Virus record (IMG/VR): IMGVR_UViG_3300005573_000005
Length of the DNA: 64,000 nt
DNA from: a virus
Reading direction: 5' to 3' (one strand)
Below, one piece after another: positions 1,257 through 31,809 of this stretch (the first letter of the stretch is position 1; each line of letters opens with the position of its first letter). The translations under genes and the position numbers were made by a program. The notes beneath the pieces are model-generated. The model saw only the letters and a program-made list of their open reading frames with translations, had not been told where the DNA came from and did no database searches.

Positions 1257-1334
1257 CTTAAAGAGAACTCTGTTTATTTTGTTGTAGAGTTAGAAGCAAG
1301 AGATTTTGCGATAGGAAATGTTTGTAAAAATAAG

Positions 1335-1667: not shown

Positions 1668-1695
1668 CTAAAACTAAAAAGGAGGAGATACAGGT

Positions 1696-2334: not shown

Positions 2335-2362
2335 CAAGTATGATAAGATTAAGTATGATAAT

Positions 2363-3055: not shown

Positions 3056-3070
3056 GATATTATTCAGGTT

Positions 3071-3183
3071 TTAAATAGGATACTTTAGAAACTTATGTGA
3101 GAATATTTGAATGTGTTTAAACGTAAGTTTGAGAAAGCTTTTGAGCGTATACAAGAGATTGCACTAAAGTTATTTTTGATTAA
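3071..3183 (+). pseudogene. decayed duplicate of the last ~113 nt of the sigma gene (direct repeat copy B)
   Basis: Aligns to 2221..2334 but carries in-frame stops (tta aat agg ata ctt TAG). It lies immediately after the methyltransferase stop. Confidence 0.85.
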
Positions 3184-3197
3184 TAAGGAGTCTATTT

Positions 3198-4226: not shown

Positions 4227-4282
4227 AGGATTTAAAAAATAAGAGATACCTACCTGATAGTTCTATAGCCAGGCTTTTTTAA

Positions 4283-7200: not shown

Positions 7201-7339
7201 GAAACAGGATAGATATGTCTTGTTTATTAAACAACTTATGCTGGCTAAAGAGAGAGGTTTAATAGATTTTGAAGTTTTTGATAAAGAAATTAAAGAAGAT
7301 AATGAAATAAAAGCTTGTGTTAACATTTTGATACCTTGA
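4283..7339 (+). CDS. family A DNA polymerase fused to an N-terminal family-4 uracil-DNA-glycosylase domain and a 3'-5' exonuclease domain
   Basis: UDG4 signature: CKKCS.., FVGEAPGIVEVNQKKPFVGPAGQFL, ECVRLCKYHL, TYHPDFILRN. Exonuclease motifs: ACDLETKG, AHNAVFDSAW, YCSCDVTYTYEIY. Polymerase motifs: A FNYDIDQTEYRV, B RRLMKRASFCVCFGGG, C LTRHDSVCID. GTG 4283 or ATG 4349 as start. Confidence 0.9.
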   Translation: MNVIYFNRNLTFSCSESSFNFGMNEVVCKKCSIRSTPVLGSGPGDFVVFVGEAPGIVEVNQKKPFVGPAGQFLDECLAKVSSVSLPVPGADIRRKSVRFENIVKCPPFNSDGTIGTPPAECVRLCKYHLFSSLEELNPKLIVTLGSVATGAFLSDDNVTNIRGYLFDFEWNGRHYPVLPTYHPDFILRNKTEEIVASFMLDLVQARIIADLPYRWEKPGFTIVKNLKEAQELANELLNYEGLVACDLETKGRNESAFYDTDSKIIGIGFHFNNKTVFLPWLHKQSPFYDDNFVIIELIKLYREVFSKIRIIAHNAVFDSAWIYSKIGATVNVAWDTMCANHHIYYGDCPSTLEYVAARYLKVPVWKSMLTKDDLDEEDLTTIAQYCSCDVTYTYEIYLKQKEILERTGFLESYYYHFIRVLPVIIGWKIRGVCIDEQLRQNLAKDFSHYYNELMKPVYESVYFKKYQEYCYQKQVKVLEEIFDSRKSSWKDKVVNSLGITVTNDDYSLVRRKYAETTAKVPEELNVRSVNDMVDFVVNVLKLPVVEKGKKYPSFGKNSWETYINLFQDKKLYDNDGKLVEDPVIYQILISLRDARHLSYLKSGFLDNLPEHYPVLDVSKEKIWQSLLPKPEGPTFVYPDVNISGTATGRYSVSNPPLHGFADEENLPIKRLVVSRYRDVGGLVFNYDIDQTEYRVIACLAEDQRMLEIYRSGSGDLHLFISAKFCNLPESEIHPAIRRLMKRASFCVCFGGGDETLKETLQSLLAAASQIQDPSVQSFLRRLETVRSDISVAASFIKEEFFKNFPGISAYHENIYKYAISHSYVVSPTGRRRWLLPIFFNDHEIRTRAINSRVQTAASDLVNSCFAVDTQLTFEELGLKSFVYLTRHDSVCIDLYPSEINLAINIAYGTVKGSKNFANCKIPDKSITPYIKKYFEKWPYTWVKVPITCKMKIGASEGDVLSLKICEGFYEVSGKQDRYVLFIKQLMLAKERGLIDFEVFDKEIKEDNEIKACVNILIP

Positions 7340-7399
7340 ATTTTATGATTTTTATGACTTTTTTGTTTTTGTTTTCCTTTTTAGATAATGGAGGTTGCT

Positions 7400-7852
7400 A
7401 TGCAAATTTGTTTAGATTCTACAAAAAAACGTTTTCAGTCACTTGTTGAGAAAGGTTTTTTAGAAAGAGATGTTTTTGGGAATATTGCAAACGCTTTAGA
7501 TTTTATATCTGAAGATTCGGACCATTTAAGCTGGATAAGTAATTTTACTAAGATAAGGACTGCACTTGCACAAGGAATATGTTCTTTGAATCTTGCTATT
7601 TCTGAAAAAGAGAACGAAATTTTGACAACTAAAGCACAGATAGCAAGAAACAGCTCTGTTCAACCTTTTAAGTCTTTTGATAAAGGTTTTTTGTATAATG
7701 AAATAGAGAGTGATCCTGAAATACTTAAATTATTGTTTCAGAAAGCGGAGCTTGTTTCTTTGAAATCTTTTTTGTTAGATGTTTTTAATTCTATAAGTGA
7801 ACAAATATTAGTACAATACAGTATAAATCAAAGAAAGGAGGTATTAGAATGA
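7400..7852 (+). CDS. hypothetical protein
   Basis: The ORF is listed from 7388. ATG 7400 is preceded by GGAGG at the right spacing. Its stop overlaps the next start (ATGA). Confidence 0.45.
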   Translation: MQICLDSTKKRFQSLVEKGFLERDVFGNIANALDFISEDSDHLSWISNFTKIRTALAQGICSLNLAISEKENEILTTKAQIARNSSVQPFKSFDKGFLYNEIESDPEILKLLFQKAELVSLKSFLLDVFNSISEQILVQYSINQRKEVLE

Positions 7853-8874
7853 AAATTAATCCTATAGACATAGACTTCTACAGGAAAGATATGGAAGTAG
7901 ATGAAGAGGGGCGACCTTCTTTATTTTATGCGTTAGTGCCTGGCGATAATGTGATAAGAATTCTACCCCCTTGGGCTCCTCATGGGCGGTTTTCATTTTC
8001 TGTTTTTCGGCATTTTTCGCTTCCGCCTGAAGGAAAAAATTTATATTGCATGGAAACATGGAATAAACTTTGTCCTGTTTGTGAAGTTTTGAAGAAATAC
8101 CGTCCTTTGCTGGAAGAAGCCAGGACGTATAGTTCCAGGGTGCGTGTTTATGTGAATGCTCTTATACCTGCATTAGGGATAGAGCCGAAAATTGTAGGTT
8201 TACCGTGGAGCGTTTATACATGGATTAGAAATGAAATTGTGAAAGTAGGAGATATAACTAATCCTTTAACAGGAGCTAATATTTTAATTCAAAAGACAGG
8301 GAAAGGTTTTGGAACTAGATATGAATGTGTCAGGCTGAAAGATTCGCCATTAGCTTCGTCAAATGAAGAGATTGTTTTTATTTTATCTAAGTTGCACAAT
8401 CTCGACGAAATCTTTAAAGAAAACCCTGATACAATTAAACTTCTTTTTAAAGCTTCGGAAGAATTAGTAAAAGCTTTTGAAGTTCTTTTACAGAAACAAA
8501 AAACAAAACTTCCAGAGGAAGCTACTGTAGATAACAAAGTTCAAACAAGCGAATCTAAAAGCAGTCAGGTATTAAATAACGTTGCACCACAGTCACAGGC
8601 AAGCGTACCTCCTGCTCCTGCACCTGTATCTCCTCATTTGCCTTCTGTGGTGCAATCTTCAATTTCTGCTCAAGCTACTGTTAATCAGTTACACTCTGAA
8701 GTTGCTTCACAAAGTAATACTCAAACACAAGTGGAGCAAAATCAGAAACAAGTTTTAGTTAAGCCGAAAGATGCACCAGATTGTTGGGGTAGATATAAAA
8801 ATGTTTTTACTGAATGTGTACTTTGTGTGCATGAATCTACTTGTATAGCTGCAACAAATACAACAGGTAAATAA
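7849..8874 (+). CDS. T4 gp32-like single-stranded DNA-binding protein with an atypical C-terminal extension
   Basis: Matches T4 gp32 as I recall it: VIRILP (T4 VIRFLP); a His...Cys...CPVC zinc site (FRHF..YCMETWNKLCPVCEVL); YVNALI (T4 WANILV); GANILIQKTGKGFGTRYE (T4 GANFVLKVKQVSGFSNYDE). Confidence 0.75.
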   Translation: MKINPIDIDFYRKDMEVDEEGRPSLFYALVPGDNVIRILPPWAPHGRFSFSVFRHFSLPPEGKNLYCMETWNKLCPVCEVLKKYRPLLEEARTYSSRVRVYVNALIPALGIEPKIVGLPWSVYTWIRNEIVKVGDITNPLTGANILIQKTGKGFGTRYECVRLKDSPLASSNEEIVFILSKLHNLDEIFKENPDTIKLLFKASEELVKAFEVLLQKQKTKLPEEATVDNKVQTSESKSSQVLNNVAPQSQASVPPAPAPVSPHLPSVVQSSISAQATVNQLHSEVASQSNTQTQVEQNQKQVLVKPKDAPDCWGRYKNVFTECVLCVHESTCIAATNTTGK

Positions 8875-8879
8875 GTTTT

Positions 8880-9947
8880 ATGAAGAAGTTATTAGAAAAA
8901 CTTGTGCAGTCTGTTAATAAGAACTTTCCAGGTGTTGCCAGTTTAGGAACAGATGTTATTTATGCTGATATAATAGATTCTGTTTCTACTGGTTGTACTC
9001 CATTGGATTGTGCTTTAATAGGTTCTGCAAATCCTAAAGGAGGGTTACCTTATGGACGCATGATAGAAATATTTGGTGATTCTTCTGAAGGGAAATCTAC
9101 ACTTGCAGAATCTGTTCTTGCACAGAATTCTAAGAAAGGTGGTATAGGAATACTTTTACTTACTGAAGGTTGTATAGATAAGAAGAGATTAGAGAAATTA
9201 GGTGTGGACCTTTCCAGTCTTGTAACACTTGAAGTATCTACGATAGAAGATGGTTTTGACAGTGCCGCTTTATTAGTTAAGCAGATTAAAGGTTTTACGT
9301 TAGAAGAGAAAAATAGAGATTCAGCTTTAGAGAAACTCAAAGACTTACCTATAGTAATTGTTTGGGATTCTATAAGCCAGTGTACTACAAGAGCAAGTTT
9401 TAAGTCTGATGATCCATCAAGATGGTCAGGGGGGATGGCAGATGTAGCAAGAGCTATAAGAGAAAAGCTTAGGGTTCACAGTTCAACTTTCTCTCGAGGA
9501 CGTGTTTGTTTTATTTTTGTTAGCCAAACAATTAAGCAGTTAGGTATGTGGGGTGGTTCTACTACTCCAGGTGGAAGCGGGATAAAATTTGCATCTTCTA
9601 TTCGTATGGAGATTTCAAGAACTGACTGGATTGATGGTAAATCGGGCAGGGAAGGAATAATTTCAGAAGTAAATATAGTTAAGTCTAAAGTATCAGTTCC
9701 TTTCAGGAAAGTTATTGTTCCTATAAGATTTGAAACAGGTATAGATAATGATTTATCACTATGGTATGCTCTTAAGGATACAGGGATTTTTAAATCTTCT
9801 GGTGGTTGGAATTATGTGACGTTGCCTGATGGGACCACTAAAAATTTTAGATGGGCTGATTACTACAAGATTTTGGATACTTCAATTGGTGAAAACAAAA
9901 CTATCAGGGATTATTTGCTTGAGAAAGTTAGTGAGCTTTACAAATGA
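8880..9947 (+). CDS. RecA-family recombinase (UvsX/RecA/RadA-like)
   Basis: Walker A IEIFGDSSEGKSTLA and Walker B-like PIVIVWDSIS. Sits next to the SSB, as in T4-type recombination modules. Confidence 0.7.
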   Translation: MKKLLEKLVQSVNKNFPGVASLGTDVIYADIIDSVSTGCTPLDCALIGSANPKGGLPYGRMIEIFGDSSEGKSTLAESVLAQNSKKGGIGILLLTEGCIDKKRLEKLGVDLSSLVTLEVSTIEDGFDSAALLVKQIKGFTLEEKNRDSALEKLKDLPIVIVWDSISQCTTRASFKSDDPSRWSGGMADVARAIREKLRVHSSTFSRGRVCFIFVSQTIKQLGMWGGSTTPGGSGIKFASSIRMEISRTDWIDGKSGREGIISEVNIVKSKVSVPFRKVIVPIRFETGIDNDLSLWYALKDTGIFKSSGGWNYVTLPDGTTKNFRWADYYKILDTSIGENKTIRDYLLEKVSELYK

Positions 9948-10168
9948 GTAAGACTAAGAAAAAGATTTTTGGAGTACATCCTGTTCAGAAAAAGCAAATA
10001 CGTAAGTATTGTTTGAAATGTGGTTCTCTTGTACTTGACCGCTATCAAGATAAGTTTTTGGGTATAATGTATCCATGTTTGGAAGAGCATTGTAAATATG
10101 AAGAAGACCGTGCTTTGATTGGTAAGTACTACAATAAAGAATTCTGGGCGCGGAGTCTTAGAGAGTAG
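9944..10168 (+). CDS. small Cys-rich (zinc-ribbon-like) protein
   Basis: CLKCGS ... CLEEHC. Overlaps the upstream stop (ATGA). Confidence 0.4.
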   Translation: MSKTKKKIFGVHPVQKKQIRKYCLKCGSLVLDRYQDKFLGIMYPCLEEHCKYEEDRALIGKYYNKEFWARSLRE

Positions 10169-10211
10169 AAGTCGTAAACACTAAAACTCCTTTGTTGCTT
10201 CAAAGACTTCT

Positions 10212-11189
10212 ATGAACAAGGTTATTTTTGATGCTAATTATCTTCTCAATAGAGTTCTTCATCTCGAAGGTTTTTTTAATTTGACTACTTCTACTTCTGT
10301 TTTTACTGGAGGTGTATTGGGGACTTTAAAAAGTCTTGTTAAGGTTCTTGAAGATATTCCAGCGGAAGAAGTTATTTTTTGTTGGGATGGAGGTTGGAGT
10401 AAGAGAAGACTTTTATTATATCCTGATTATAAGCGGGACCGCTTAGAAAAAGAAAGAACAGAAGAAGATTTTATTAGGGCAGAGAAATTTCTTTTTTCTA
10501 AAGGACTTTTGATTAAGCTACTCCCTAATTTTGGAGTTAGAAGCCTTGCTATTAAAGGTAAAGAAGGCGATGACCTTTGTGCTTTTATAAAATCTCTTTT
10601 TGAAAAAGAAGGAGCTAGCATTGTAATTGTTTCAGATGACTGGGATTTTGCAACGCTTGTATCAGATAGGTGTTCTGTTTATCGTGTTATGTCAGGAAAA
10701 CTTATTACGAATGAGAATTTTTCTTCTGAGACTGGTTTTGAAACTCCTTATGAGTTTCTTCTTTGTGCATCTATAGTAGGTGGTCATGACAATTTGAAAA
10801 CCATTCCTGGTATTGGAGAAGGCACTGTAAAGAAACTATTTAAGGAGTTTAAGTTTCGTACTAAATCAAAGATAGTGCCTGAGACACTTGAAGATTTGTT
10901 TAAGTATTGTCTTCTTAGTAAAAGAAAACGTTTTGTAGACATTGCAAATGCAAGAGAGCAGATTTTACTCAATATAGAACTTGTAGACATGTCTAAAGAG
11001 CAGTTTACTTTAGAGGAAGTTAAGTATGTTCTTGAGGCTTTAACTAAGCCTGTTTGTTTTAATGAGATAGAAGTAATTAAGATTCTTTCTGCTATGGAGT
11101 TTAAGGCTTTGGAGGAAACTTATAGGTATTGGTCTGGTAAATTTACAAGTCTTGGTAGAGGCATTTTGCTTAAGCAGAATGAAGAATAA
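10212..11189 (+). CDS. 5'-3' exonuclease / flap endonuclease (T4 RNase H / Pol I 5'-nuclease family)
   Basis: FCWDGGWSKRRLLLYPDYKRDR, GKEGDDLCAF, IVSDDWDFATL, and an H3TH-like IPGIGEGTVKKL. Confidence 0.8.
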   Translation: MNKVIFDANYLLNRVLHLEGFFNLTTSTSVFTGGVLGTLKSLVKVLEDIPAEEVIFCWDGGWSKRRLLLYPDYKRDRLEKERTEEDFIRAEKFLFSKGLLIKLLPNFGVRSLAIKGKEGDDLCAFIKSLFEKEGASIVIVSDDWDFATLVSDRCSVYRVMSGKLITNENFSSETGFETPYEFLLCASIVGGHDNLKTIPGIGEGTVKKLFKEFKFRTKSKIVPETLEDLFKYCLLSKRKRFVDIANAREQILLNIELVDMSKEQFTLEEVKYVLEALTKPVCFNEIEVIKILSAMEFKALEETYRYWSGKFTSLGRGILLKQNEE

Positions 11190-11239
11190 AAACAATTTTA
11201 ACTGACTGTTTCGTTTTTAAAAACCTCTTTAAGATTTGG

Positions 11240-11334
11240 GAAGGAGATGTAGGTTGGTTATGTTAGTCGTAGTAACAAATAAACTGACCTCCTCGTGTTT
11301 TATGTTGAACGGCTGACATAACCAACTTTCCTTC
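11240..11334 (+). promoter_or_regulatory. structured leader: long-range inverted repeat upstream of the sbcDC-like gene
   Basis: gaagga (11240-11245) pairs with tccttc (11329-11334). gttggttatgt (11253-11263) pairs with acataaccaac (11316-11326). The enclosed loop contains gacctcctc, which is complementary to SD-like GGAGG. Confidence 0.3.
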
Positions 11335-11347
11335 AGGAGTTTTAATT

Positions 11348-14212
11348 ATGAAATTTATAGTTTTCAGTGATTTACATGCTTCGGGTTTTAACTACTACAA
11401 GGCTTTAAACTATTCGCATCAGTTGTCTTGTGTGTATCATACTCTTATTTGGATAGCTGAATTGTGTAAAAAGAATAAACCAGATTTTGTAGTTTGTTGT
11501 GGCGATATTGTTAGTTCGAATTCTTATGTGGAAATACCTGTAAATAATGCTATTTTTGAAGGATTTTCTCAAATTGCTAAAGAAGTACCTGTTCATGTTG
11601 TGATGGGTAATCACGATTTAGATACTCGTACTAATGCTTCTTCTTATATAGAAGCTTTGAAAGAGATAAATAACGTTACTGTTTATACAGGAGTAAAAAG
11701 GGTTAGTATTAACAATAAAAATTTAATATTTGTTCCTTATACAGACGATTTTTCTATTATTCCTGAAGATTTGTTTAAGACTGCTTTTGATTATGCTTTT
11801 ATACATCTTCCTATACAAGGTGTTACTCTCGCTCCTGGTATTTTGGATGAAGGAATAGATCCTAAAAAATTTCTACTCTGGAATAGAGTCTTTGCTGGAC
11901 ATTATCATACTCCTCAAGATAACGCTTTAGGTTATAGTAATTTGTACTTTGTAGGGTCCGTTTTGTTCAGTAACTTTACTGAGAATTGTTTAACGGCTTT
12001 TGATAGAGGAGTAATTATTTGTGATAATGATTCTGTTATAAGATTGCCTAATCCTTTTACGCCGTTTTATACTACAGTTAGAAATAAAGAGGAACTTCTT
12101 TCTTATAAAAGAGATAAGAAGAGAACATTTCTCAGGATAAGTTTTGAGCCTGATGGCTTAGATTTATCCGAGTTTCTTAGGGTTTATACTATTAAGGCAG
12201 GGAAGGTAGAAAATGTGGCACGTACTAATTTATCTGTAAATACTGACCCTGCTGTTGCTGTAAAAGAGTATGGTAAGTTTAAGAATTTTTCAGATGATGT
12301 TATAGAATCAGGAATTCAAATATTAGATTCTGTAAAAGAAGATTTTAAAGTAAAGACTGTTCCTGTTTTTCATCGTTTTAATAAATTATATGTCCGTAAT
12401 TTTTTGTGTGTTTCTGAGATAACTCTTGATTTGAGTAATTTAGGTTCTGTTTTGGTAGAAGGTATTAACAAAGATGAGACCTGTTCTATTTCCTCAGGTG
12501 CAGGCAAATCAGCTTCTTTTGTTGAACCTATTTTATGGTGTCTTTTTGACAGGACTGTAAGAGGTGTTAAAAAAGATGCTGTAATTAATGAAAAAGCTGG
12601 TAAGGATTGTATTGTGCATCTGCAATTTACTTCGGGGAATAAAATTTATGATGTGGTAAGGTATAGGAAGCTGGATGGTTATAAAGTCTATGACAGGCTT
12701 TTAACAGATACAGGTATAAATATTTTTGAGAATGGTGTAGATATTTCTAAGAAAAAAGCATTAGATACGGATGCTTTAATTAGTTCTATAATAGGTTTAT
12801 CCTGGGAAGCTTTTGTTTCTCTTATTCTTATAGGAAGTGCGTCGCAGGGAAATTTTGTAACGTTTTCCAGTTTAGGACCGTTTGATAGAATCCTCTTTCT
12901 TGAGAGTTTTTTGCCTTGGCTTGAGATTTATGCTAAAGCTTATCAAAAAGCCTTGGATTTGTCTAACGATTTATCGAGTGAAGAAAATTCTTTAAATAGC
13001 AGTCTTGCTGTTTTAGATGAGAGAATTAAAGAGAAACAGAGTAAAATTTCTTCTTTTGAGCAAGAATCGAAAACATTTGAACTTTCAAGAGCTTCTAAGC
13101 TATCTGAAATAGACCAGAAGATTACAGCTTTAAAATCTAAGTTAGAAACGGTTGTCCTTGCTTTGAAGGAGAATAGAGAGAAGCTTTCTATTGTAGAATC
13201 TAAGGTGGAAGAACCTACAGATAAGTCTGCTGAAATTTCGGAACTTAATTCAATTATCAATATCAATGAAATAGAAAAGTCTAAACTGAAGAAAATGATT
13301 TCTAATGTAGCTAACGTTGTTTGTGATAAGTGTGGGCAACCTATTTCAGATGATTATAGAAATAAAGTGGTTGAAGAAAGCAAGTTAAAGATTTTAGAAC
13401 TCGATAATAGTATACTTATTGCTAAAAAGTCTCTTGAAGAAATTCTTAAGAAGAAGTCTGAGGAAGAAACAAGGTATAGGCAATGTCAGTCGCTTCTTAA
13501 TGAATTACAACATAAAATTTCTTCTTTAGATACAGATGAAAAACTTCTGAAGAGAGAATTAGAAATTCTACAGAGTTCTAAAATTGAAGTAGAGCAAAGT
13601 GAGAACCGTTATCTCTCTTTGATTGAGAAAGAGAAGACTGAACTCTTAAAGGCTGAGAAAGATTTTCAAGAATTGCAGAAGAAGCTTCAAGATTGTCTGA
13701 CAAGGAAGGAAAAGGTTTCGTTATGGGTACAAGGATTTTCACCTTCTGGTGTTCGTTCTTACATTCTTGACAGTGTATTGAATTTTATTAACGAACGTCT
13801 TAGTTTTTATTCTTCTCAGATTTTTGAGGATAATGTACTGGTTAAGTTTGTACCTTCTATTATTGGTAATAAAACTTCTATAGAAATCTTTTTAAGTTCT
13901 GCTAATTTCAAGAATCGTGTGTATTCTAATTGTTCTGGAGGAGAGAAACGTAGAGCAGATATTTCTATTGCATTAGCTATTCGTGATTTTGTGCAATCTT
14001 ATACAAATTCTAACTGTAATATTTTAATTGCTGATGAAATAATAGATTCGTTAGATAAGCGTTCAAGTTCTTTTGTTCTTACTTGTTTGAAAAGTGTTGC
14101 AGATAATGTATTTGTCATTTCTCATTCTCCAGATGTGAAAGGTCTACTCGATTCTGTAATAACTGTAGTTAAACAGAATGGTCAAACTACAATAGCTAAA
14201 GGAGGAATGTAA
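11348..14212 (+). CDS. fused SbcD/Mre11-like nuclease and SbcC/Rad50-like ATPase (T4 gp47+gp46 equivalents in one polypeptide)
   Basis: N-terminal phosphoesterase motifs: FSDLHAS, CCGDIVS, MGNHD, GHYH. Then Walker A SSGAGKSAS, a long coiled coil with a CxxC hook (VCDKCGQP), the ABC signature CSGGEKRRADISIALA, Walker B ILIADEIIDSLD and VFVISH. Confidence 0.8.
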   Translation: MKFIVFSDLHASGFNYYKALNYSHQLSCVYHTLIWIAELCKKNKPDFVVCCGDIVSSNSYVEIPVNNAIFEGFSQIAKEVPVHVVMGNHDLDTRTNASSYIEALKEINNVTVYTGVKRVSINNKNLIFVPYTDDFSIIPEDLFKTAFDYAFIHLPIQGVTLAPGILDEGIDPKKFLLWNRVFAGHYHTPQDNALGYSNLYFVGSVLFSNFTENCLTAFDRGVIICDNDSVIRLPNPFTPFYTTVRNKEELLSYKRDKKRTFLRISFEPDGLDLSEFLRVYTIKAGKVENVARTNLSVNTDPAVAVKEYGKFKNFSDDVIESGIQILDSVKEDFKVKTVPVFHRFNKLYVRNFLCVSEITLDLSNLGSVLVEGINKDETCSISSGAGKSASFVEPILWCLFDRTVRGVKKDAVINEKAGKDCIVHLQFTSGNKIYDVVRYRKLDGYKVYDRLLTDTGINIFENGVDISKKKALDTDALISSIIGLSWEAFVSLILIGSASQGNFVTFSSLGPFDRILFLESFLPWLEIYAKAYQKALDLSNDLSSEENSLNSSLAVLDERIKEKQSKISSFEQESKTFELSRASKLSEIDQKITALKSKLETVVLALKENREKLSIVESKVEEPTDKSAEISELNSIININEIEKSKLKKMISNVANVVCDKCGQPISDDYRNKVVEESKLKILELDNSILIAKKSLEEILKKKSEEETRYRQCQSLLNELQHKISSLDTDEKLLKRELEILQSSKIEVEQSENRYLSLIEKEKTELLKAEKDFQELQKKLQDCLTRKEKVSLWVQGFSPSGVRSYILDSVLNFINERLSFYSSQIFEDNVLVKFVPSIIGNKTSIEIFLSSANFKNRVYSNCSGGEKRRADISIALAIRDFVQSYTNSNCNILIADEIIDSLDKRSSSFVLTCLKSVADNVFVISHSPDVKGLLDSVITVVKQNGQTTIAKGGM

Positions 14213-14213
14213 A

Positions 14214-14657
14214 ATGTTTAAGTTTAAAACAGTAAAAGGTTCAGTAGCGCCTGTTAGGCAAACATTAACTTCAGCTATTTTTAATATTTGTGTCAATTTA
14301 AAGAGGACAGCAAAAAATTTAAAAAAGAATTCCAGTGATTTTGAAATATCAGGTGAGAAGATGTTTATAAAACCTTCGGGTTATGCAGAAATTCTTACAG
14401 GAATTTTTCTGGAAACAGATTCAGAGTGTGTAGGGTTATTATGTCCTGTAGATTTTTTATATTCTCGTTATGGTTTAATTATACCAAATTCTCCTAAAGT
14501 TTTTGATTGCAATTTTAAAGGGGAAATTTTTATTCCTGTTTTGAACATATCAGATTCTTTGTCAATTATACCAAATAAGGCGGTTTTGGCTCAATTTATT
14601 GCACAACTCAATATTATTTCTGAAGTGTGCAGGGAAAAGAATTCGTTTGGATCGTAA
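14214..14657 (+). CDS. dUTPase-like protein (divergent motifs)
   Basis: YSRYGLIIPNSPKVFDCNFKGEIFIPVLNIS resembles dUTPase motifs 2-3 (RSS..G..idsdYrGEi.v.l.N), but several conserved residues are substituted. Confidence 0.4.
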   Translation: MFKFKTVKGSVAPVRQTLTSAIFNICVNLKRTAKNLKKNSSDFEISGEKMFIKPSGYAEILTGIFLETDSECVGLLCPVDFLYSRYGLIIPNSPKVFDCNFKGEIFIPVLNISDSLSIIPNKAVLAQFIAQLNIISEVCREKNSFGS

Positions 14658-15151
14658 TGAAAGACTACGAAGCGAGGATTATAAAGTCTTTTCGTTCTTG
14701 TTGCATGGTTATCAGGCTTTATGATAGTTTTACCGCTAGAGGTAAAATTGTTCCGCCTCAAGGATGTGATATTTTACTTTTGTTAGAAGATTCAATTGTG
14801 ATACCTGTAGAATTGAAAAAATGTTCTAGTAAAAAATTTTCTGTTTTGTCCAGGATTCGCAGGAAGCAACTTCAGTTTCTTGAGTTATGTGCGGACAAAA
14901 AAATTTTTGCATTTGTGCTTGTAGAATTTAAGGATGTAATTATTTCCTTACCTTGTGTAGCTCTTATTGAATTTCTTAAGGAAAGGGATTTACGTCCTCG
15001 CAGAAGTTGTTTGCTGGATTTATCTACAATTAAGCCTCATACAGGTATTACAGGTACGGAAATTTTGTATAGTTTTGGATGTTATAAATCTATAAAAGAT
15101 TGGTTTTCAAGTTTAAAAAAAGCCTTAAGTTGCCTGGTTATAAAGGAGTAG
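14657..15151 (+). CDS. PD-(D/E)xK nuclease, possibly a Holliday-junction resolvase (Hjc-like)
   Basis: GCDILLLLEDSIVIPVELKK gives a D...E-x-K arrangement. ATG 14657 overlaps the upstream stop (TAATGA). Sits in the recombination module. Confidence 0.35.
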   Translation: MKDYEARIIKSFRSCCMVIRLYDSFTARGKIVPPQGCDILLLLEDSIVIPVELKKCSSKKFSVLSRIRRKQLQFLELCADKKIFAFVLVEFKDVIISLPCVALIEFLKERDLRPRRSCLLDLSTIKPHTGITGTEILYSFGCYKSIKDWFSSLKKALSCLVIKE

Positions 15152-15160
15152 GAGGAGGAT

Positions 15161-16150
15161 ATGAAAAAACTTAGCCAAAAATCTTTTCAAGAGCTTTTTC
15201 AAAGTCCTTGTGATTTGTATCAAGGTTGTGGAGAACAAATTGTTTTGAGAAATAAAGGTAAAACATCGGAACCTGATTTTGAGCAATTGCTTGAATTAGA
15301 AAATTCAGGCAAGTATGCGGCTGAACCTAAGTTTGATGGTGTTTGGGTAGCAATCTTTTATGACGGCAAAAGCCTTTTTGTTTTTTCTAGAAATGGCAAA
15401 GTTGAACATGTAAAACTTCCCTCTGAATATTTGGCGCCTCAATCTATTCTTATAGGCGAGCTCTGTAAGGGGGGGTATACTTTGGTAAATATTTTTGATG
15501 TGCTGATGTGGGATGGCGCATCTTTTTTTGATTATCCTTATGTTATCAGGACGGCTGTTCTTACAGATATATTTACTTCAGAACTTTCTTTTTGTAATAG
15601 TTTTTTCAGGAAAGTTCAATCTTTTTTGTCAGGTTGGGTAGATTTATATAAAAAACAGCCCGAAGGAATAATTCTTAAGAAGCTAAGTTCTAAGTATGTA
15701 GGGGGATATACTAAAGATTTTATTAAAGTTAAGAAATGGTTTACAGAAGATTTAGTTTGTATGGGTTGGTATCCTATTCAAGGTAAGGAAAAAATATCTC
15801 TTATTGTAGGTGTTTATAAAAAATGTTCTAAGGAAGAACAATTAGCAAAAATAGAAGAATTTAAGAAATTGGGTAATACTTATATAACAAAAAAGGAGGA
15901 TATACTGATGCAGGAAATAAAAGGTAAGAAGTATTATCTTGTTCCTGTTTGTAGTGTTGGGGGTATGTCCAGGAAGAATTGCAAAAGGCTTTCTGAGAAC
16001 TTTGCTTTATATGAAGGTCGTGTTGTAGAAGTACAGCATTGGGGTTATTTAGATGAGGGGTTATTGGCGCATCCATCTGTTTTTGAGTCTGCAGGCGATT
16101 TAGGTTTTCGTTTAGATAAAGACAGAAGAGATTGCTTACAGTGTATATAA
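15161..16150 (+). CDS. ATP-dependent DNA ligase
   Basis: Strong RBS (aggaggagga). Adenylation motif I AEPKFDGVW, motif III FDVLMWDG, motif IV EGIILKK, motif V IKVKK. Confidence 0.85.
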   Translation: MKKLSQKSFQELFQSPCDLYQGCGEQIVLRNKGKTSEPDFEQLLELENSGKYAAEPKFDGVWVAIFYDGKSLFVFSRNGKVEHVKLPSEYLAPQSILIGELCKGGYTLVNIFDVLMWDGASFFDYPYVIRTAVLTDIFTSELSFCNSFFRKVQSFLSGWVDLYKKQPEGIILKKLSSKYVGGYTKDFIKVKKWFTEDLVCMGWYPIQGKEKISLIVGVYKKCSKEEQLAKIEEFKKLGNTYITKKEDILMQEIKGKKYYLVPVCSVGGMSRKNCKRLSENFALYEGRVVEVQHWGYLDEGLLAHPSVFESAGDLGFRLDKDRRDCLQCI

Positions 16151-16271
16151 CCTTTATATATTTTATTATTTGAGATATAAAAGGTTTTTATGCCTATCCT
16201 AAGGAAAAGTTTAAAAGGCTTATGGAAAAGGCTTATAAAAGATATATAAAATTATTTGAGGAAACATAGTT

Positions 16272-17171
16272 ATGAATAAGCAGTCAGAAATAGAAAAACT
16301 AAAAGCGGAAATCGAGCGGTTGAAAAAGGAGTTGAAGAAAAGGAAGAAATACGGGCTTGTTTGGGAAGACAAAACAGAAGAAGTGGTTGAGATGTGTAAA
16401 GAAAAATTACCGGTGCTTAAAGAAGTAAAAGATAAAGAAATAATCACTGATAAAAACAAGCCGGTAAATTTATTGATTGAAGGTGATAATTACCACGCTC
16501 TTTCGGTTTTAAATTATACCTACGCCGGCAAAGTTGATGTTATTTATATTGACCCGCCGTATAACACGGGCAACAAAGATTTTATTTTCAACGACCATTA
16601 TGTTGACCGCGAAGATGCCTACCGTCACTCAAAATGGCTTTCTTTTATGGAGAAAAGATTAAAATTAGCAAAGAATTTATTAAAAGATACCGGAGTAATT
16701 TTTATTTCAATTGATGACAACGAAGTAGCGCAACTGAAATTATTGATGGATAATCCAGATTTGTTTGGGGAAGGTAATTTTATTGCTAATATAATTTGGC
16801 GAAAGAAAAGAACGTTCGGGCGAGGTGATGCGTTAATAATTCCTCAGACTGAATATATATTAAATTACGCGAAAGTTAAAAGAAATTTAAGAGGATATTT
16901 TTTACCTTTTTCTAAAAAAAAGATTAAGGATTATAAATTTAGAGATAATAGGGGGTATTATAGAAGAGTTCCTTTAGAACATCCTTTTCCAAAAGGTGCA
17001 TATATACGGAAAACATTTTACAAGTACTTGAACAGATATAATAAGAGCAATAAAGACCCAAACAGTTTATTGCCACCAAAAATATTGTTGACAAAAGAAG
17101 GAAATTATGATGATATATCTTCTCAAACAACAAAAGAAAGAAAAAATTTCAGCATACAAAATAGGGATTGA
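16272..17171 (+). pseudogene. N-terminal fragment of a type III Mod / type IIG-like N6-adenine DNA methyltransferase
   Basis: LLIEGDNYHALSVLNY.., VDVIYIDPPYNTGNKDFIFNDHYV, HSKWLSFMEKRLKLAKNLLKDTGVIFISIDDNE and NFIANIIWRKK are typical of this family. The C-terminal AdoMet-binding FxGxG half is absent and the tail degenerates into a K/N-rich sequence. Confidence 0.65.
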
Positions 17172-18363
17172 TGTTTGGATTGAAAAAAGTTATAAGGCAA
17201 AAAGACAAAAGATAAAAATGAAGCTAAACCAATCTCAAATAGAACTTCAGGAACGAATCATTCGAGTCTTAGAAGAACAGGGATTTAAAATAGATTCTCA
17301 TGTGAGACCCAGGGGATGTAGTAAAACAACTTATCGCAGAATCCAACAAAAGGCAAAGTTCGAACAATTATTTTTGCACAAAAATTTTTTAATAGATTCT
17401 TTTGAGAAAGTGAAAAATTATTGCAGAAATGGTTTTGAAATTATTCCTGAGAAGATTTCTTTAGAATTAAAAGAGGTTCAGTCAGGTTCTTTTGAAGAGG
17501 TTTTATTTAAATGGTGGAATTTAATCTGGTGGAGTATTCCATATCAACGTCCATGTGGTCGCCAGATGAGGTTTTTATTATGGGATATAACACATGATAC
17601 ACCGTTTGGGTTAATTAGCTTACAAAGTCCTGTACTTAAAATGTCTGTTCGTGATAATTACTTGGGTATACCTAAGGATGACTTAGACATATGGGTAAAT
17701 AAATCAATGAACGCGCATAGAGTTGGAGCTTTGCCGCCGTATAATGAATTATTGGGCGGAAAAATGGTTGCTCTTACCCTGTCTTGCAATGAAATCAGAG
17801 AAGCATATAGAAGAAAATATAAGAATTACACAACAATCATTAAAGGAAGAAAGTTAGAACCTGAGCTCTTATTTATTACTACTACAAGTGCTTTTGGGAA
17901 AAGCAGTTTATACAATCGTTTAAGATATAATGGAGAAGTCGTGGCACAAAGTTTAGGTTATACTCAAGGTTCTGGGACATTTCATATCCCTGAGGATTTA
18001 TATGAAGAACTCCTTGAATTTTTAAAAAGTCAGGGAGTTGATGTGGCAAGAGGTTGTGGACACGGACCTTCAAGAAAACTAAAACTAATAAGTCTTGGTC
18101 TAAAATATCTTGGGTTATCAAAATATGAATATCACGGGATTAAACGAGAGTTTTATTTGTTTCCACTTGTTAAAAATTTAAAAAAGGTTATTCAAGATGG
18201 GGAGGAACCAATATGGGTAGATCGTCCTTTTGATAAATTGGTTGATTATTGGAAAGAAAGATGGGCAATACCAAGGGCAGAGAGAATTTCTGAATGGAAA
18301 AATTTTGATAGCAATAAATTTTTCAAAAAGGTAGAAAAATTTTTAAATGCAGACAGTGTGTGA
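17107..18363 (+). CDS. DUF4338 (Druantia DruA-like) domain protein
   Basis: WWNLIWWSIPYQRPCGRQMRFLLWD..PFGLISLQSPVLKMSVRDNYLGI fits my recollection of the DUF4338 core (W..HHYLG...G..lRYlv...g..vallgf.saa.k...RD.wIGW). It overlaps the methyltransferase fragment by 65 nt across an A-rich tract. ATG 17218 is an alternative start. Confidence 0.5.
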   Translation: MMIYLLKQQKKEKISAYKIGIDVWIEKSYKAKRQKIKMKLNQSQIELQERIIRVLEEQGFKIDSHVRPRGCSKTTYRRIQQKAKFEQLFLHKNFLIDSFEKVKNYCRNGFEIIPEKISLELKEVQSGSFEEVLFKWWNLIWWSIPYQRPCGRQMRFLLWDITHDTPFGLISLQSPVLKMSVRDNYLGIPKDDLDIWVNKSMNAHRVGALPPYNELLGGKMVALTLSCNEIREAYRRKYKNYTTIIKGRKLEPELLFITTTSAFGKSSLYNRLRYNGEVVAQSLGYTQGSGTFHIPEDLYEELLEFLKSQGVDVARGCGHGPSRKLKLISLGLKYLGLSKYEYHGIKREFYLFPLVKNLKKVIQDGEEPIWVDRPFDKLVDYWKERWAIPRAERISEWKNFDSNKFFKKVEKFLNADSV

Positions 18364-19051
18364 CAAAGAATGTCTTTACAAAGCCTTTTTAGGTTTTGTA
18401 AAAAATACAGAAAATAAAGACAACTGTAATAAACTTTTAAAAGAATTGAAGAGAGTTTGTGAGTATTTATTGCCTGTATATGTAAATTGTCCCCAAGGTT
18501 ATGAAGAGGATTTTTTGATGGAAGCTGTTGAGAAATGCTGGGTTGTTTGTAACAATTTAGCCAGTAGAGATTGTTACAAGAAAGTTTGTCCTGATTCAAC
18601 TAAATTTAGAAATTTTCTTTTCAGATGTATAGAAAATTCTTTTCATGACACATGGAGAAAATTTAATTTTTCTGCTTTTACAGATTTAGATTTACCTTTT
18701 GTTTGTTCCAGAATATTGTCTCCACGTAGTATTGTAGATTTTAATTTATTTATGTCGGAATATAAAGGCATTGTTTTGAAATTTTTAAAAGAAAATAATA
18801 GATATGAAGAATTGTCAGATAGTGTCATTGAATATTTTGTTGAAAAATTTTTTGCAGGGGATAGCAGAGAAGAGATAGTTAATAGTCTTTACAATGTTTT
18901 TTTTGTAAGGAATCCTTATTTCTTTTATCAATATTTGACTGTTTTGTGCAGGATTGCTTTAAAGAAGCTTGCTGATTCTTTTAAAATGGAGGAAATAGAT
19001 ATTTATATAGAACCTTTTTTGGAGTATAACGAAGATGAAGAGACAGAATAA
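18347..19051 (+). CDS. hypothetical protein, possibly a second divergent sigma-like factor
   Basis: EEDFLMEAVEKCW and FRNFLFRCIENSFHDTWRK loosely resemble sigma region 2 (F..yl...i.N...D..Rk). Weak. Confidence 0.3.
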   Translation: MQTVCDKECLYKAFLGFVKNTENKDNCNKLLKELKRVCEYLLPVYVNCPQGYEEDFLMEAVEKCWVVCNNLASRDCYKKVCPDSTKFRNFLFRCIENSFHDTWRKFNFSAFTDLDLPFVCSRILSPRSIVDFNLFMSEYKGIVLKFLKENNRYEELSDSVIEYFVEKFFAGDSREEIVNSLYNVFFVRNPYFFYQYLTVLCRIALKKLADSFKMEEIDIYIEPFLEYNEDEETE

Positions 19052-19442
19052 TTTGTTAGATATTTTTGAGAATAATGAATTTTTCCGTAGAAATGCTTCA
19101 ATATTAGTTTTGCTTCTTCTTATAGACCAGAGATTTTCTTTATTGCCGGAACTTTATAGAGTTTTCGGTGCAAAAAAATTATTGCTTTTTCTTGAGATTT
19201 TTTCTGGAATGACTTTTAATGTTATTTCAAGGAAGAAATTATTAGAACTTTATAGAGATGTGCATATTTACACAGCAATTAGCAATGCAGGACCGTCAAA
19301 GAGAAATGTTATAAATGATTTAGCCAGACAATACTCTTTAGATAGTGATGTTGTAAGAAAGATTTACAAAAGAGTTGCTGAGTGCGTTCAAAAAGATTTT
19401 GCTACTCTGGCAAAAATTAAAAAGGAGATAGAAATATGGTAA
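19035..19442 (+). CDS. Mor-like transcriptional activator (candidate late regulator)
   Basis: LYRVFGAKKLLLFLEIFSGMTFNVISRKKLLELYRDVHIY...NDLARQYSLDSDVVRKIYKRV follows the Mor-family layout (fGG..i.iP....l.r..Rd..I....g.....LA..Y.ls...v..I). Confidence 0.4.
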   Translation: MKRQNNLLDIFENNEFFRRNASILVLLLLIDQRFSLLPELYRVFGAKKLLLFLEIFSGMTFNVISRKKLLELYRDVHIYTAISNAGPSKRNVINDLARQYSLDSDVVRKIYKRVAECVQKDFATLAKIKKEIEIW

Positions 19443-20056
19443 AATGTAAAGTTTGTGGTAAAGAGTTTGCGAAATTAACCTGGAAACATTTACGTACGCA
19501 TAAGATGACTGTTGAAGAATATCGTAAATTTTATGGTGGTCCTGCACCTGTTTCTGTTACTCCGAACACTATTTTAGATGGTTTAGCTAAGTGGGCACAG
19601 GAAGGTACTATTCCTGATTCTGTTAGAAATCTTGTAGATAGATTATATGAAGATCCGCAAACCAGACTAAAGATGATATTGATGGCAGTAGCTATTCAAT
19701 CTTTAACACGGTTAGCAAGTTTGCAGGGTATAGTTGATTTAGTTTCTTCAAAGATTTTTTCTGCTGAACGTATAAATGACCCACGAACTTCTTTGAATGA
19801 TTTGATAAAAATATTTAATGCTGCATCTACAGAAATAAAGAATATTACAGATTTGTTTAAAGATATTTCTCTTGAACCTGTAAAAAGTGGTACTGCTTAT
19901 ATAGATGAAGTTAATTTAAATTTTTCTGAGCTTCCGCAAGATCCTAAGAAGAGAGCTGAGATTTATGAAGTAATTACCAATGTTTTGAACGCATTGGAAG
20001 GCAAAGTTAATAAAGACAAGCAATTATCTTCTCCTGAAAAGGAGCAAAAGAAATGA
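19436..20056 (+). CDS. C2H2-type zinc-finger protein, possible small terminase subunit (by position)
   Basis: CKVCGKEFAKLTWKHLRTH at the N terminus. Lies immediately upstream of, and overlaps, the large terminase gene. Confidence 0.3.
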   Translation: MVKCKVCGKEFAKLTWKHLRTHKMTVEEYRKFYGGPAPVSVTPNTILDGLAKWAQEGTIPDSVRNLVDRLYEDPQTRLKMILMAVAIQSLTRLASLQGIVDLVSSKIFSAERINDPRTSLNDLIKIFNAASTEIKNITDLFKDISLEPVKSGTAYIDEVNLNFSELPQDPKKRAEIYEVITNVLNALEGKVNKDKQLSSPEKEQKK

Positions 20057-28906: not shown

Positions 28907-29068
28907 ATGCGACAAAAAATTTATCAACAAAACGCAATAGATGAGTTATTAGCAAAATCCAGGAAGCTTTTGAATTTATCAGGTGGTAAAAAATTTGTTT
29001 TTAAATCACCGACTGGTTCCGGAAAAATAATAATGATGGCGGAGTTTTTGAAGCAATTCTCCTATTAG
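28907..29068 (+). pseudogene. 53-codon remnant of a superfamily-2 helicase / type III restriction Res-like gene (N terminus only)
   Basis: Not in the ORF track (<60 aa). Translates to MRQKIYQQNAIDELLAKSRKLLNLSGGKKFVFKSPTGSGKIIMMAEFLKQFSY*. That is a Q-motif-like region plus Walker A (SPTGSGK), then a stop with no helicase motifs II-VI downstream. Confidence 0.55.
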
Positions 29069-31785: not shown

Positions 31786-31809
31786 AGAGATAGAAAGGAT
31801 TTGTATAAC

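What the first reader, a model, noticed from the sequence alone, without database searches (positions are those of the whole stretch)
16151..18363. Accessory islet between ligase and late genes: truncated Mod-like methyltransferase plus a DruA-like (DUF4338) ORF
Directly after the ligase there is a 120-nt spacer. It contains short direct repeats (aaaggcttat x2, attatttgag x2).

Next comes an ORF with a very typical type III Mod / type IIG N-terminal half (IDPPYNTG, HSKWLSFM..RL, FISIDDNE, IIWRKK). It stops before any FxGxG domain.

A 418-aa ORF overlaps it by 65 nt, across an A-rich tract (..acaacaaaagaaagaaaaaatttc..). Its core (GRQMRFLLWD..FGLISLQSPVLKMSVRDNYLGI) matches my recollection of DUF4338, the domain that defines DruA of the Druantia defence system.

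None of the other Druantia genes (DruB-E helicase) is present. The possibilities are:
- a defence remnant;
- a phage-borne stand-alone DUF4338 function (superinfection exclusion or anti-defence);
- a methyltransferase-N::DUF4338 fusion reached through a frameshift in the A-tract.
Basis: partly seen in the sequence, partly recalled or inferred. Interest (0 to 1): 0.65.

Follow-up and report, generated by a model that had tools for sequence, protein, structure and literature searches.

The report
Phage-borne orphan DruA with methylase relic
A phage carries an intact lone copy of a bacterial immune-system gene (DruA) beside a broken DNA-methylase gene; lone copies on five unrelated mobile elements share one amino-acid change, which hints that the gene has been re-purposed, perhaps to block host immunity.

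Summary
A 5' half of a type III mod gene (16272-17171, no AdoMet motif) is followed by a strong DruA/DUF4338 gene (Pfam 6e-71).

The 65-nt overlap is an artefact. DruA starts at ATG 17218 (381 aa). The 37-codon extension is a decayed relic of a small HTH_17 regulator gene that precedes druA in cellular loci. A frameshift fusion is not supported.

The parent system is not Druantia. In about 120 bacterial, archaeal and CPR loci this DruA clade heads a DruA-NurA-HerA operon, often with an HTH_17 gene upstream and other defence genes inserted. I found no description of this module.

The phage took only druA. The gene is intact and shows purifying selection (dN/dS 0.15-0.2). Lone copies also sit in a related phage at another locus, in an inovirus-like contig and in a PolB element.

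All these lone copies have His at residue 167. All 121 NurA/HerA-linked copies have Gln. The change arose 4-6 times.

Best reading: a mosaic islet whose working part is an orphan DruA, a GNAT-like protein (weak fold evidence), most likely interfering with host DruA-NurA-HerA immunity. The biochemistry is unknown.

The parts
16151..16271 (+). Spacer after the ligase gene. From about 16203 onwards it is the 5' leader that travels with the mod cassette. It contains a 13-bp tandem duplication (16213-16225 and 16226-16238).
   Evidence: blastn and alignment to the region upstream of mod in L088. L088 has one copy of the 13-mer. The repeat pattern is at chance frequency elsewhere in the window.
16272..17171 (+). 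5' half of a type III-like mod (beta-class N6_N4 DNA methyltransferase) gene. It has a coiled-coil N-terminus, motif IV (DPPY) and the start of the target-recognition domain. Motif I (FxGxG) and the C-terminal domain are missing.
   Evidence: Pfam and PADLOC hits cover only the first half of the profiles. Alignment A2 with 515-521 aa homologs. Nucleotide homology of 85-87% to other mod loci ends at about 16795, and protein similarity ends at about 17018. The closest full-length homolog lies in an HTH_17-Mod-279aa-Res cassette (L089).
17140..17217 (+). Pseudogene relic of the small HTH_17 (mad1-like) regulator gene that precedes druA in cellular loci. It is truncated at the 5' end and has 27-nt and 5-nt internal deletions. 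It keeps the native A-rich leader of druA. It creates the artefactual 37-codon extension of the 418-aa ORF.
   Evidence: Nucleotide homology to L002 starts at 17167, and peptide similarity KISAYKIG..IDVWIEK starts at about 17143. The L002 small protein hits Pfam HTH_17 and PADLOC mad1 at 9e-7.
17218..18363 (+). Intact orphan druA (381 aa, PF14236). The model shows an N-terminal helical/hairpin domain and a GNAT-like core. The last codons overlap the start (18347) of the next phage gene.
   Evidence: Pfam 6e-71 and PADLOC 2e-86. 70-87% identical to about 150 homologs and keeps every family-invariant residue. dN/dS 0.15-0.21. AF2 model with pLDDT 95.6. The top PDB and BFVD fold matches are GNAT acetyltransferases, but weak.
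17716..17718 (+). Codon CAT = His167, in strand beta-4 just before the conserved RVGALPPYN loop. This is the convergent substitution specific to orphan copies on mobile elements; linked copies have Gln.
   Evidence: His in 6 of 6 virus/MGE orphan copies. Gln in 144 of 144 other close homologs and in 121 of 121 NurA/HerA-linked loci. 4-6 independent changes on neighbour-joining trees. CAT and CAC codons with different synonymous flanks.

Best explanation
The islet is a recombination mosaic built from two cellular defence cassettes.

On the left is the leader and 5' half of a type III mod gene. It cannot methylate, because the AdoMet-binding half is missing. This part is shown.

It is joined, somewhere in 17022-17140, to the 3' stump of an HTH_17 regulator gene plus the complete first gene (druA) of a DruA-NurA-HerA operon. 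The nuclease (NurA) and motor (HerA) genes were not taken. This part is also shown.

The working part is the orphan DruA. Its fold is GNAT-like, though the fold evidence is weak. It has kept all family-invariant residues. At a subfamily-defining position of strand beta-4 it has changed Gln167 to His.

Inferred mechanism: during infection the phage makes a near-copy of the head subunit of the host's DruA-NurA-HerA system. That copy either occupies the partner or trigger site without licensing NurA-HerA (subunit poisoning), or carries out the protective or regulatory acyl-transfer reaction on its own. Either way the nuclease-motor effector is disarmed.

The logic is the same as for phage orphan methyltransferases or phage-borne antitoxin mimics. 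The Mod fragment and the HTH_17 stump are scars. The stump is kept because it carries the native translation-initiation region of druA.
For: Anatomy:
- Homology breakpoints and deletions.
- No NurA, HerA, DruB-E or full Res anywhere in the window.

Parent system:
- 51 of 63 informative loci from GTDB species genomes have NurA/HerA next to DruA.
- So do 62 metagenome loci.
- HTH_17 lies upstream in several of them.

Function rather than junk:
- The ORF is intact and every invariant residue is kept.
- dN/dS is 0.205 against L002 and 0.154 against L003.
- The same islet is 99.98-100% identical in three assemblies.
- Orphan copies lie in a related tailed phage at a different locus (L003), in an inovirus-like UViG with Zot and minor-coat genes (L001), in a PolB/DUF927 element (L093) and in a further element (L148 = L096).

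Specialisation:
- His167 is found only in orphans and Gln167 in all 121 linked copies.
- The change happened 4-6 times, with different codons, and no other column behaves this way.
- In canonical Druantia DruA the position is Tyr, so it tracks the partner system.

GNAT assignment:
- Nearly all of the top 50 PDB matches are GNAT-fold acetyltransferases, none significant.
- Aravind-lab assignment of DUF4338 as a GNAT domain (PMC10853773).
Against: - No biochemical or genetic data exist for any DruA. The direction of the effect, anti-defence or defence, is inferred from gene content only.
- Fold matches to GNATs are weak (best E 0.05), and the canonical Q/RxxGxG/A acetyl-CoA motif is not clearly present.
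- Several orphan copies keep Gln167: L028, L049 and L121. L126, L147 and L170 also keep it, and there DruA is followed by an SMC/ABC-type ATPase.
- The host of this phage is unknown, and so is whether it carries DruA-NurA-HerA.
- The gene sits at the end of the replication module, not in an obvious early anti-defence region.
- His is a possible catalytic residue, so Q167H could create an activity rather than disable one.
Confidence: 0.45

Rival explanations
1. The orphan DruA(H167) works for the mobile element on its own. It could be a stand-alone exclusion or defence gene against competing phages, or a host-takeover enzyme that acylates a host protein, RNA or nucleotide. Under this reading Q167H adapts it to act without NurA-HerA.
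For: - The same facts that show selection and convergence.
- DruA is modular and heads several different effector sets: NurA-HerA, STK-AAA plus CARF-like genes, an SMC/ABC-type ATPase, DruB-E, and fusions to DUF488, a transposase HTH domain or ParB-MTase.
- Chronic or integrative elements such as the inovirus-like and PolB elements often carry exclusion genes.
- Aravind and colleagues proposed the GNAT domain as a co-effector acting on proteins.
Against: - The window phage shows no lysogeny genes in the 64 kb seen, and every gene of 120 aa or more around the islet is on one strand in a lytic-style layout.
- The orphans remain 77-87% identical to linked cellular copies. That fits mimicry of a partner interface better than a new stand-alone activity.
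- No effector domain other than the GNAT-like core is present.
Confidence: 0.28
2. The whole islet is neutral debris. It would be a recent illegitimate capture of defence-island DNA, with druA intact only because too little time has passed for decay.
For: - Two of the three pieces are plainly broken: the Mod half and the HTH_17 stump.
- A further 53-aa Res fragment lies elsewhere in the phage.
- N-terminal Mod fragments are common debris in other contigs (L088 and L091).
- Divergence from the closest cellular copy is modest (dS 0.35).
Against: - The adjacent HTH_17 stump has accumulated two deletions, while the 1146-nt druA has no lesion.
- dN/dS is 0.15-0.2.
- Independent orphan copies exist on five kinds of element.
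- The convergent Q167H, with different codons, is very hard to explain without selection.
- The gene is packed with translational overlap into the next phage gene.
Confidence: 0.1
3. One reading: a Mod-N::DruA fusion protein produced by ribosomal frameshifting or transcriptional slippage in the A-tract 17130-17146.
For: The two ORFs overlap by 65 nt across an A-rich stretch that contains an A6 run. One database protein fuses DruA with ParB and an N6_N4 MTase, but there the MTase is C-terminal (P0271).
Against: - The overlap region is a decayed HTH_17 gene, not a designed linker.
- Homologs start at the internal ATG.
- The required shift is +1 or -2. The A AAA AAT heptamer would shift -1 into a stop at 17160.
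- An A6 run is short for slippage.
- None of the ten N- or C-terminally extended DruA proteins scanned has an N-terminal MTase domain.
- Three assemblies show no length variation.
Confidence: 0.02

Closest known systems
DruA of Druantia type I (Pfam PF14236 / DUF4338; Doron et al. 2018), e.g. P. putida pKF715A DruA-DruB-DruC-DruD-DruE
   Same: Same Pfam family with full-length homology (PADLOC DruA1 2e-86). It is likewise the first gene of a multi-gene defence operon. It shares the conserved LGA-PPYN-LLGGK core.
   Different: Only 32% identical. The partners are DruB-E with a helicase of about 1840 aa, not NurA-HerA. Residue 167 is Tyr. The window gene has no partner at all.
DruA-NurA-HerA operons of thermophilic and other bacteria, CPR and archaea (e.g. 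Thermodesulfovibrio sp. 3462-1, CP144374). I found no description of this module in the searchable literature.
   Same: This is the direct source clade, 70-87% identical. Nucleotide homology extends into the upstream HTH_17 gene.
   Different: Cellular copies have Gln167 and are followed by NurA and HerA. Tiamat-like TmtA, STK-AAA/CARF-like, GmrSD or R-M genes are often inserted between them. The phage copy is alone and has His167.
HerA-scaffolded defence systems (Sir2-HerA, DUF4297-HerA) and archaeal HerA-NurA end-resection complexes
   Same: The parent module contains a HerA-type hexameric ATPase and a NurA nuclease. It is therefore probably a DNA-threading nuclease effector (PADLOC HerA hits; papers listed).
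   Different: None of these genes is in the phage. Published HerA systems have no DruA/GNAT-like head gene.
Phage orphan DNA methyltransferases, phage antitoxin mimics, and the GNAT anti-CRISPR AcrVA5 (from my own knowledge: Dong et al. 2019)
   Same: Works-like analogy. A mobile element carries only the non-destructive component, or an acetyltransferase, and uses it to disarm a host nuclease system.
   Different: There is no sequence relationship. The activity of DruA has not been demonstrated.
Type III restriction-modification Mod subunits (beta-class N6_N4 MTases), e.g. the HTH_17-Mod-279aa-Res cassette in L089
   Same: The N-terminal 175 residues are 85-92% identical to those of full-length homologs, and the catalytic DPPY motif is present.
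   Different: Truncated before motif I. There is no adjacent res gene. A separate 53-aa Res stump lies 12 kb away.
Distant structural DruA-likes in Synechococcus phages (Phold preprint, 10.1101/2025.08.05.668817) and in giant viruses (BFVD hits)
   Same: These are precedents for a DruA fold in viruses.
   Different: They are 12-21% identical and detectable only by structure. The window gene is a close, recent capture at 87% identity to a cellular copy. tblastn finds no relative in 50,697 GenBank phage records.

Membership tests
Pfam PF14236 DruA / DUF4338 protein family | Sequence match to the family profile above the gathering score, over the full domain | tested here: met
   239 bits against a cut-off of 27, profile positions 4-296 of 297. 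PADLOC DruA1 2e-86.
Druantia type I defence system | DruA encoded together with DruB, DruC, DruD and the large DUF1998 helicase DruE | tested here: not met
   tblastn with P. putida DruB-E finds nothing in the window. The largest ORF in the window is 1018 aa. Close cellular homologs also lack DruB-E.
DruA-NurA-HerA module (defined here from neighbourhoods) | DruA directly followed, or preceded, by NurA nuclease and HerA/DUF87 ATPase genes | tested here: not met
   No NurA or HerA similarity anywhere in the 64-kb window. Only druA and a stump of the upstream HTH_17 gene are present. The gene derives from this module but is an orphan.
DruA-NurA-HerA module (defined here from neighbourhoods) | Gln at position 167 (SMNAQRVGALPPYN) | tested here: not met
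   The window has His (CAT, 17716-17718). All 121 linked loci have Gln.
GNAT (GCN5-related N-acetyltransferase) superfamily | GNAT fold (beta1-alpha1-alpha2-beta2-4-alpha3-beta5-alpha4-beta6) | tested here: inconclusive
   High-confidence model (pLDDT 95.6). Nearly all of the top 50 PDB matches are GNAT-fold acetyltransferases, but the best E-value is 0.05 and TM-scores are 0.2-0.5. Profile search of PDB sequences found nothing. hhalign against RimI found nothing. A published assignment as GNAT exists.
GNAT (GCN5-related N-acetyltransferase) superfamily | Acetyl-CoA pyrophosphate-binding motif Q/R-x-x-G-x-G/A after beta-4, and acyl-transfer activity | not testable with these tools
   The sequence after beta-4 reads (Q/H)RVGALPPYNELLGGK. 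This matches the motif only in part. No coordinates or assay were available.
Type III R-M Mod / beta-class N6_N4 DNA methyltransferase | Catalytic motif IV (D/N-P-P-Y/F) | tested here: met
   IDPPYNTG at residues 93-100. Pfam N6_N4_Mtase 9e-23.
Type III R-M Mod / beta-class N6_N4 DNA methyltransferase | AdoMet-binding motif I (FxGxG) and a complete target-recognition domain | tested here: not met
   The ORF ends before the VLDFFAGSGTTG column of alignment A2. tblastn with full-length homologs finds no second half in the window.
Type III R-M system | Adjacent res (SF2 helicase-nuclease) gene | tested here: not met
   Only a 53-aa N-terminal Res stump exists, at 28907-29068 and not adjacent.
Programmed frameshift fusion | Slippery site giving the correct frame, conservation of the fusion in relatives, and length heterogeneity | tested here: not met
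   The frame needed is +1, and the heptamer present would give -1 into a stop. The linker is a pseudogene. Homologs start at the internal ATG. Three assemblies are identical. Raw reads were not available.

The most novel reading that the evidence does not exclude
Orphan DruA(H167) proteins are a new class of counter-defence gene shared by tailed phages, filamentous phages and PolB-type elements. They are near-copies of the head subunit of a widespread and so far undescribed DruA-NurA-HerA immune module. A single, repeatedly selected Gln167-to-His change at a partner- or substrate-specifying position of the GNAT-like core has converted them into inhibitors or hijackers of that module. A corollary is that the 5' stumps of mod and res in the same phage could also act as subunit poisons of a host type III R-M enzyme; this corollary is much less likely.
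Probability: 0.35. Interest if true: 0.8.

Novelty: new variant of a known kind. Interest (0 to 1): 0.62.

Why it matters
DruA has had no assigned role since Druantia was described in 2018.

This locus shows three things:
- The family is not tied to Druantia. It most often heads a highly mobile NurA-HerA nuclease-motor module, found in bacteria, CPR and archaea at 70-85% identity across domains.
- Viruses and other mobile elements repeatedly steal only this head gene.
- Each time, the stolen copy acquires the same single substitution.

That gives a simple, directly testable handle: swap Q167H and H167Q, with and without NurA-HerA. The test bears both on what DruA does and on a possible new anti-defence strategy based on mimicry of a subunit.

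The finding also warns that database labels such as 'Druantia anti-phage system protein DruA' mis-assign these loci.

Tried and rejected
- Relatives of the phage that lack the islet. Scans with the 234-aa downstream protein (IMG/VR) and with TerL (IMG/VR and JGI metagenomes) found none. Whether the islet is an insertion between ligase and late genes could therefore not be shown directly.
- First AF2 run with a shallow alignment of 71-87% identical sequences. It gave pLDDT 52 and was unusable. It was repeated with 61 diverse sequences.
- The third homolog search, made with the diverse profile, returned the same close clade.
- Base composition. There is no GC anomaly in the islet.
- Promoter and terminator scan. 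Counts do not differ from shuffled sequence.
- Spacer repeats as target-site duplications. Rejected: there is no copy at the right end, and one repeat is a local tandem duplication.
- The idea that Mod-HTH_17-DruA adjacency pre-existed in a donor. No other locus among about 200 has this Mod family within 3 kb upstream of DruA. Some distant loci (L106, L109) do have a Mod-like MTase about 4 kb upstream.
- Literature searches for DruA, DUF4338, NurA+HerA+anti-phage and HerA+NurA+GNAT found no description of a DruA-NurA-HerA system.
Full report
**1. What is in the sequence**

The ligase gene ends at 16150 and a 121-nt spacer follows. A 299-aa ORF (16272-17171) carries the IDPPYNTG, HSKWLSFMEKRL, FISIDDNE and IIWRKK motifs. 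A 418-aa ORF (17107-18363) overlaps it by 65 nt.

Profile searches confirm both identifications.
- The first ORF matches Pfam N6_N4_Mtase (9e-23), but only profile positions 1-158 of 221. It matches PADLOC type III MTase models (1e-63), but only positions 35-246 of 528.
- The second ORF matches PF14236 DruA at 6e-71 (239 bits; cut-off 27) and PADLOC DruA1 at 2e-86 over the whole profile.

**2. The methylase is a 5' half**

Full-length relatives are 515-521 aa. The window protein is 82-92% identical to them up to about residue 175. It then enters the variable target-recognition region and stops before the VLDFFAGSGTTG AdoMet motif.

No second half exists elsewhere in the window. Nucleotide homology to other mod loci (85-87%) runs from about 16203, in the leader, to about 16795. 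Weaker protein similarity continues to about 17018.

The closest full-length homolog lies in a resolvase / HTH_17 / Mod / 279-aa / Res cassette, which is a type III R-M unit (L089). N-terminal stumps of this mod family are common in other contigs (L088 with 195 aa, L091 with 178 aa). Such stumps therefore look like ordinary debris of cassette turnover.

Of the spacer repeats, one is a 13-bp tandem duplication inside the mod leader relative to L088. Neither repeat exceeds chance elsewhere in the window.

**3. The overlap is an artefact and the frameshift idea fails**

About 150 close homologs are 375-381 aa and begin MKLNQSQ.., which corresponds to ATG 17218. Upstream of that ATG, homology to the cellular locus L002 continues to 17167 at the nucleotide level and to about 17143 at the peptide level.

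The window reads ..KISAYKIG/IDVWIEK.. The 47-aa HTH_17 protein of L002 reads ..GKIPAYKIGRQWRFKKEEIDAWIEKRKVIRQKDKK. The window copy lacks the first 13 or so codons and has a 27-nt and a 5-nt deletion. The 5-nt deletion shifts the frame past the old stop codon and so opens the 37-codon 'extension'.

The intergenic A-rich tract is therefore the junction between a Mod stump and an HTH_17 stump.

A fusion would need a +1 shift. The only slippery-looking heptamer (A AAA AAT, 17141-17147) would give a -1 shift into a stop at 17160. Three independent assemblies of this phage (L008, L009 and the window) are identical, without gaps, across the tract.

**4. The parent system is not Druantia**

Neighbourhoods of close homologs show a conserved operon. 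An HTH_17 gene often comes first, then DruA, NurA and HerA (DUF87). Other defence genes are frequently inserted between these genes:
- a Tiamat-like TmtA (SACS+NOV_C);
- an STK-AAA kinase plus a CARF-like protein;
- GmrSD;
- a ThaI R-M pair.

Among the loci from 74 GTDB species genomes, 63 had enough flanking sequence to judge. Of these, 51 had NurA/HerA next to DruA, 6 had only the kinase/CARF pair, and 6 had neither. In an independent set of 80 metagenome loci, 62 were NurA/HerA-linked.

The clade spans Nitrospirota, Caldisericota, Ignavibacteriota, Zixibacteria, CPR, Methanosarcinales, Archaeoglobi and others. Identity reaches 70-83% across domains of life, so it is extremely mobile.

Canonical Druantia type I (P. 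putida pKF715A: DruA, then proteins of 558, 625 and 260 aa, then a helicase of 1841 aa) has a DruA only 32% identical to the window protein. The window has no DruB-E, NurA or HerA.

I found no paper describing a DruA-NurA-HerA module. The small HTH_17 gene resembles mad1, described as a widespread regulator at the head of the MADS operon.

**5. The phage copy is a maintained orphan**

The window druA is intact and keeps every invariant and near-invariant residue of both the close and the diverse alignments. Its dN/dS is 0.205 against the closest cellular copy (L002, dS 0.35) and 0.154 against L003.

Its 3' end overlaps the start of the next phage gene. The native A-rich leader is retained inside the HTH_17 stump.

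Lone copies occur on other mobile elements:
- L003 is a related tailed phage. It shares a metallophosphatase at up to 78% identity and a repeat-protein family with the window. Its DruA sits between a repeat protein and a DUF5906 primase-helicase, with no Mod beside it.
- L001 is an IMG/VR contig with Zot-like and minor-coat genes, so it is inovirus-like.
- In L093, DruA follows an HTH_17 gene and a 1592-aa DUF927/PolB protein.
- L148 (= L096) and L095 are further small-ORF contexts.

GenBank phages contain no sequence-level relative. Only distant structural DruA-likes are known in viruses.

**6. A convergent substitution marks the orphans**

Residue 167 lies in the motif SMNA-X-RVGALPPYN, in strand beta-4 of the model.
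- It is Gln in 144 of 144 other close homologs, and in all 121 loci where DruA is next to NurA/HerA. Those loci range from 41% to 87% identity.
- It is His in every one of the virus/MGE orphan copies listed above.

On neighbour-joining trees the Q/H state needs 5 changes, and 4-6 in 100 bootstraps. The His codons are CAT or CAC, and the synonymous flanking sites differ, so a shared recombination patch is excluded. No other alignment column behaves this way.

Across the wider family the position is Tyr or Phe in Druantia-type and other distant DruAs. It therefore looks like a site that tracks the partner or the substrate.

Not all orphans have His. L028 is chromosomal, lying between a rhomboid gene and dnaE, and has Gln. 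L126, L147 and L170 have Gln and are followed by an SMC/ABC-type ATPase.

**7. Fold**

With a diverse 61-sequence alignment, AF2 gives a confident model (pLDDT 95.6, pTM 0.92). It shows an N-terminal helix-hairpin-helices region, a mixed alpha/beta core and a C-terminal helical bundle.

Foldseek finds no significant PDB match. Nearly all of the top 50 are GNAT acetyltransferases, including KKT23, TmcA, a tandem GNAT, Naa60 and GCN5. This agrees with the published assignment of DUF4338 as a GNAT domain (PMC10853773).

Membership of the GNAT superfamily is thus plausible but not established here. Catalysis is untested.

**8. Interpretation**

Shown:
- The islet is a mosaic of a mod stump, an HTH_17 stump and an intact druA taken from a DruA-NurA-HerA cassette.
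- The druA is under selection and belongs to a set of orphans on mobile elements that carry the convergent Q167H.

Inferred:
- The orphan acts on, or in place of, the host's DruA-headed system. The most likely role is counter-defence, by subunit mimicry or by supplying a protective activity (0.45).
- It could instead have a stand-alone exclusion or takeover role (0.28).
- Neutral debris (0.10) and a frameshift fusion (0.02) are disfavoured.

**9. Verdict**

Novelty: a new variant of a known kind. It is a known protein family, placed in a new system context and in a new, convergently modified orphan form on mobile elements.

Noticed in passing
window 28907-29068 (+): A 53-aa ORF in the gap between two late-region genes is the N-terminal stump of a type III Res helicase, including the Walker A motif SPTGSGK. 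It is 70% identical in protein and 79% in DNA over 154 nt, starting exactly at the res start codon, to the Res of the L089 cassette, which also holds the closest full-length Mod. The phage therefore carries 5' stumps of both mod and res at separate loci. Whether these are scars or functional decoys is unknown.
   Followed up: partly
L002, L004, L010, L011 and about 120 further loci (e.g. L004 10001-18838): A conserved and very mobile operon, HTH_17-DruA-NurA-HerA, occurs in bacteria, CPR and archaea. Other defence genes are inserted between its own genes: TmtA/Tiamat-like, STK-AAA plus CARF-like, GmrSD and a ThaI R-M pair. It appears to be undescribed, and its DruA proteins carry the source name 'Druantia anti-phage system protein DruA'.
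   Followed up: partly
window 31801-32826, 36446-39004, 40141-42991 and 59785-60336; L003 7430-7993: A family of paralogous proteins is built from a short repeat (..SLEGAPEYVGGNF.C..C..L.SL.G..), with many copies in the window phage and one just upstream of DruA in the related phage L003. They could be receptor-binding or tail-fibre-like repeat proteins. They were seen only as tblastx matches.
   Followed up: no
window 16203-16795 compared with L088, L089 and L091: The 5' 520 nt of this mod family, plus its leader, is 85-87% identical at the DNA level across unrelated contexts. Homology always ends at the start of the target-recognition domain. This suggests recombination-driven swapping of specificity domains or cassettes, and it would explain the frequent 5' stumps.
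   Followed up: partly
P0241, P0275, P0308, P0271 (database proteins): DruA domains occur fused to DUF488-N3, to the DUF4096 HTH domain of IS4/5 transposases, and to ParB_N plus an N6_N4 methyltransferase.
   Followed up: no
L106 and L109 (IMG/VR contigs), about 900-12100: Distant DruA-NurA-HerA loci (31-32% identity, Phe at position 167) have an HTH_17 gene and a Mod-like methyltransferase about 4-7 kb upstream in the same orientation. The layout is reminiscent of the MADS operon.
   Followed up: no
window 18347-20056: The three small genes after the islet include one with a weak sigma-70 region 2 resemblance (E 0.06) and one with a ROS/MucR zinc-finger domain (1e-6). They are candidate late-gene regulators placed just before the terminase.
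   Followed up: no
window 11348-16150: The module before the islet encodes a 954-aa ORF (11348-14212) that reads like a fused Mre11/Rad50 (SbcCD-like) protein. That assignment comes from inspection of the sequence only; no profile search was run on it. A dUTPase-like protein, a RecU-like resolvase and an ATP-dependent ligase follow, each with a Pfam hit. Around the islet, all ORFs of 120 aa or more are on the + strand.
   Followed up: no
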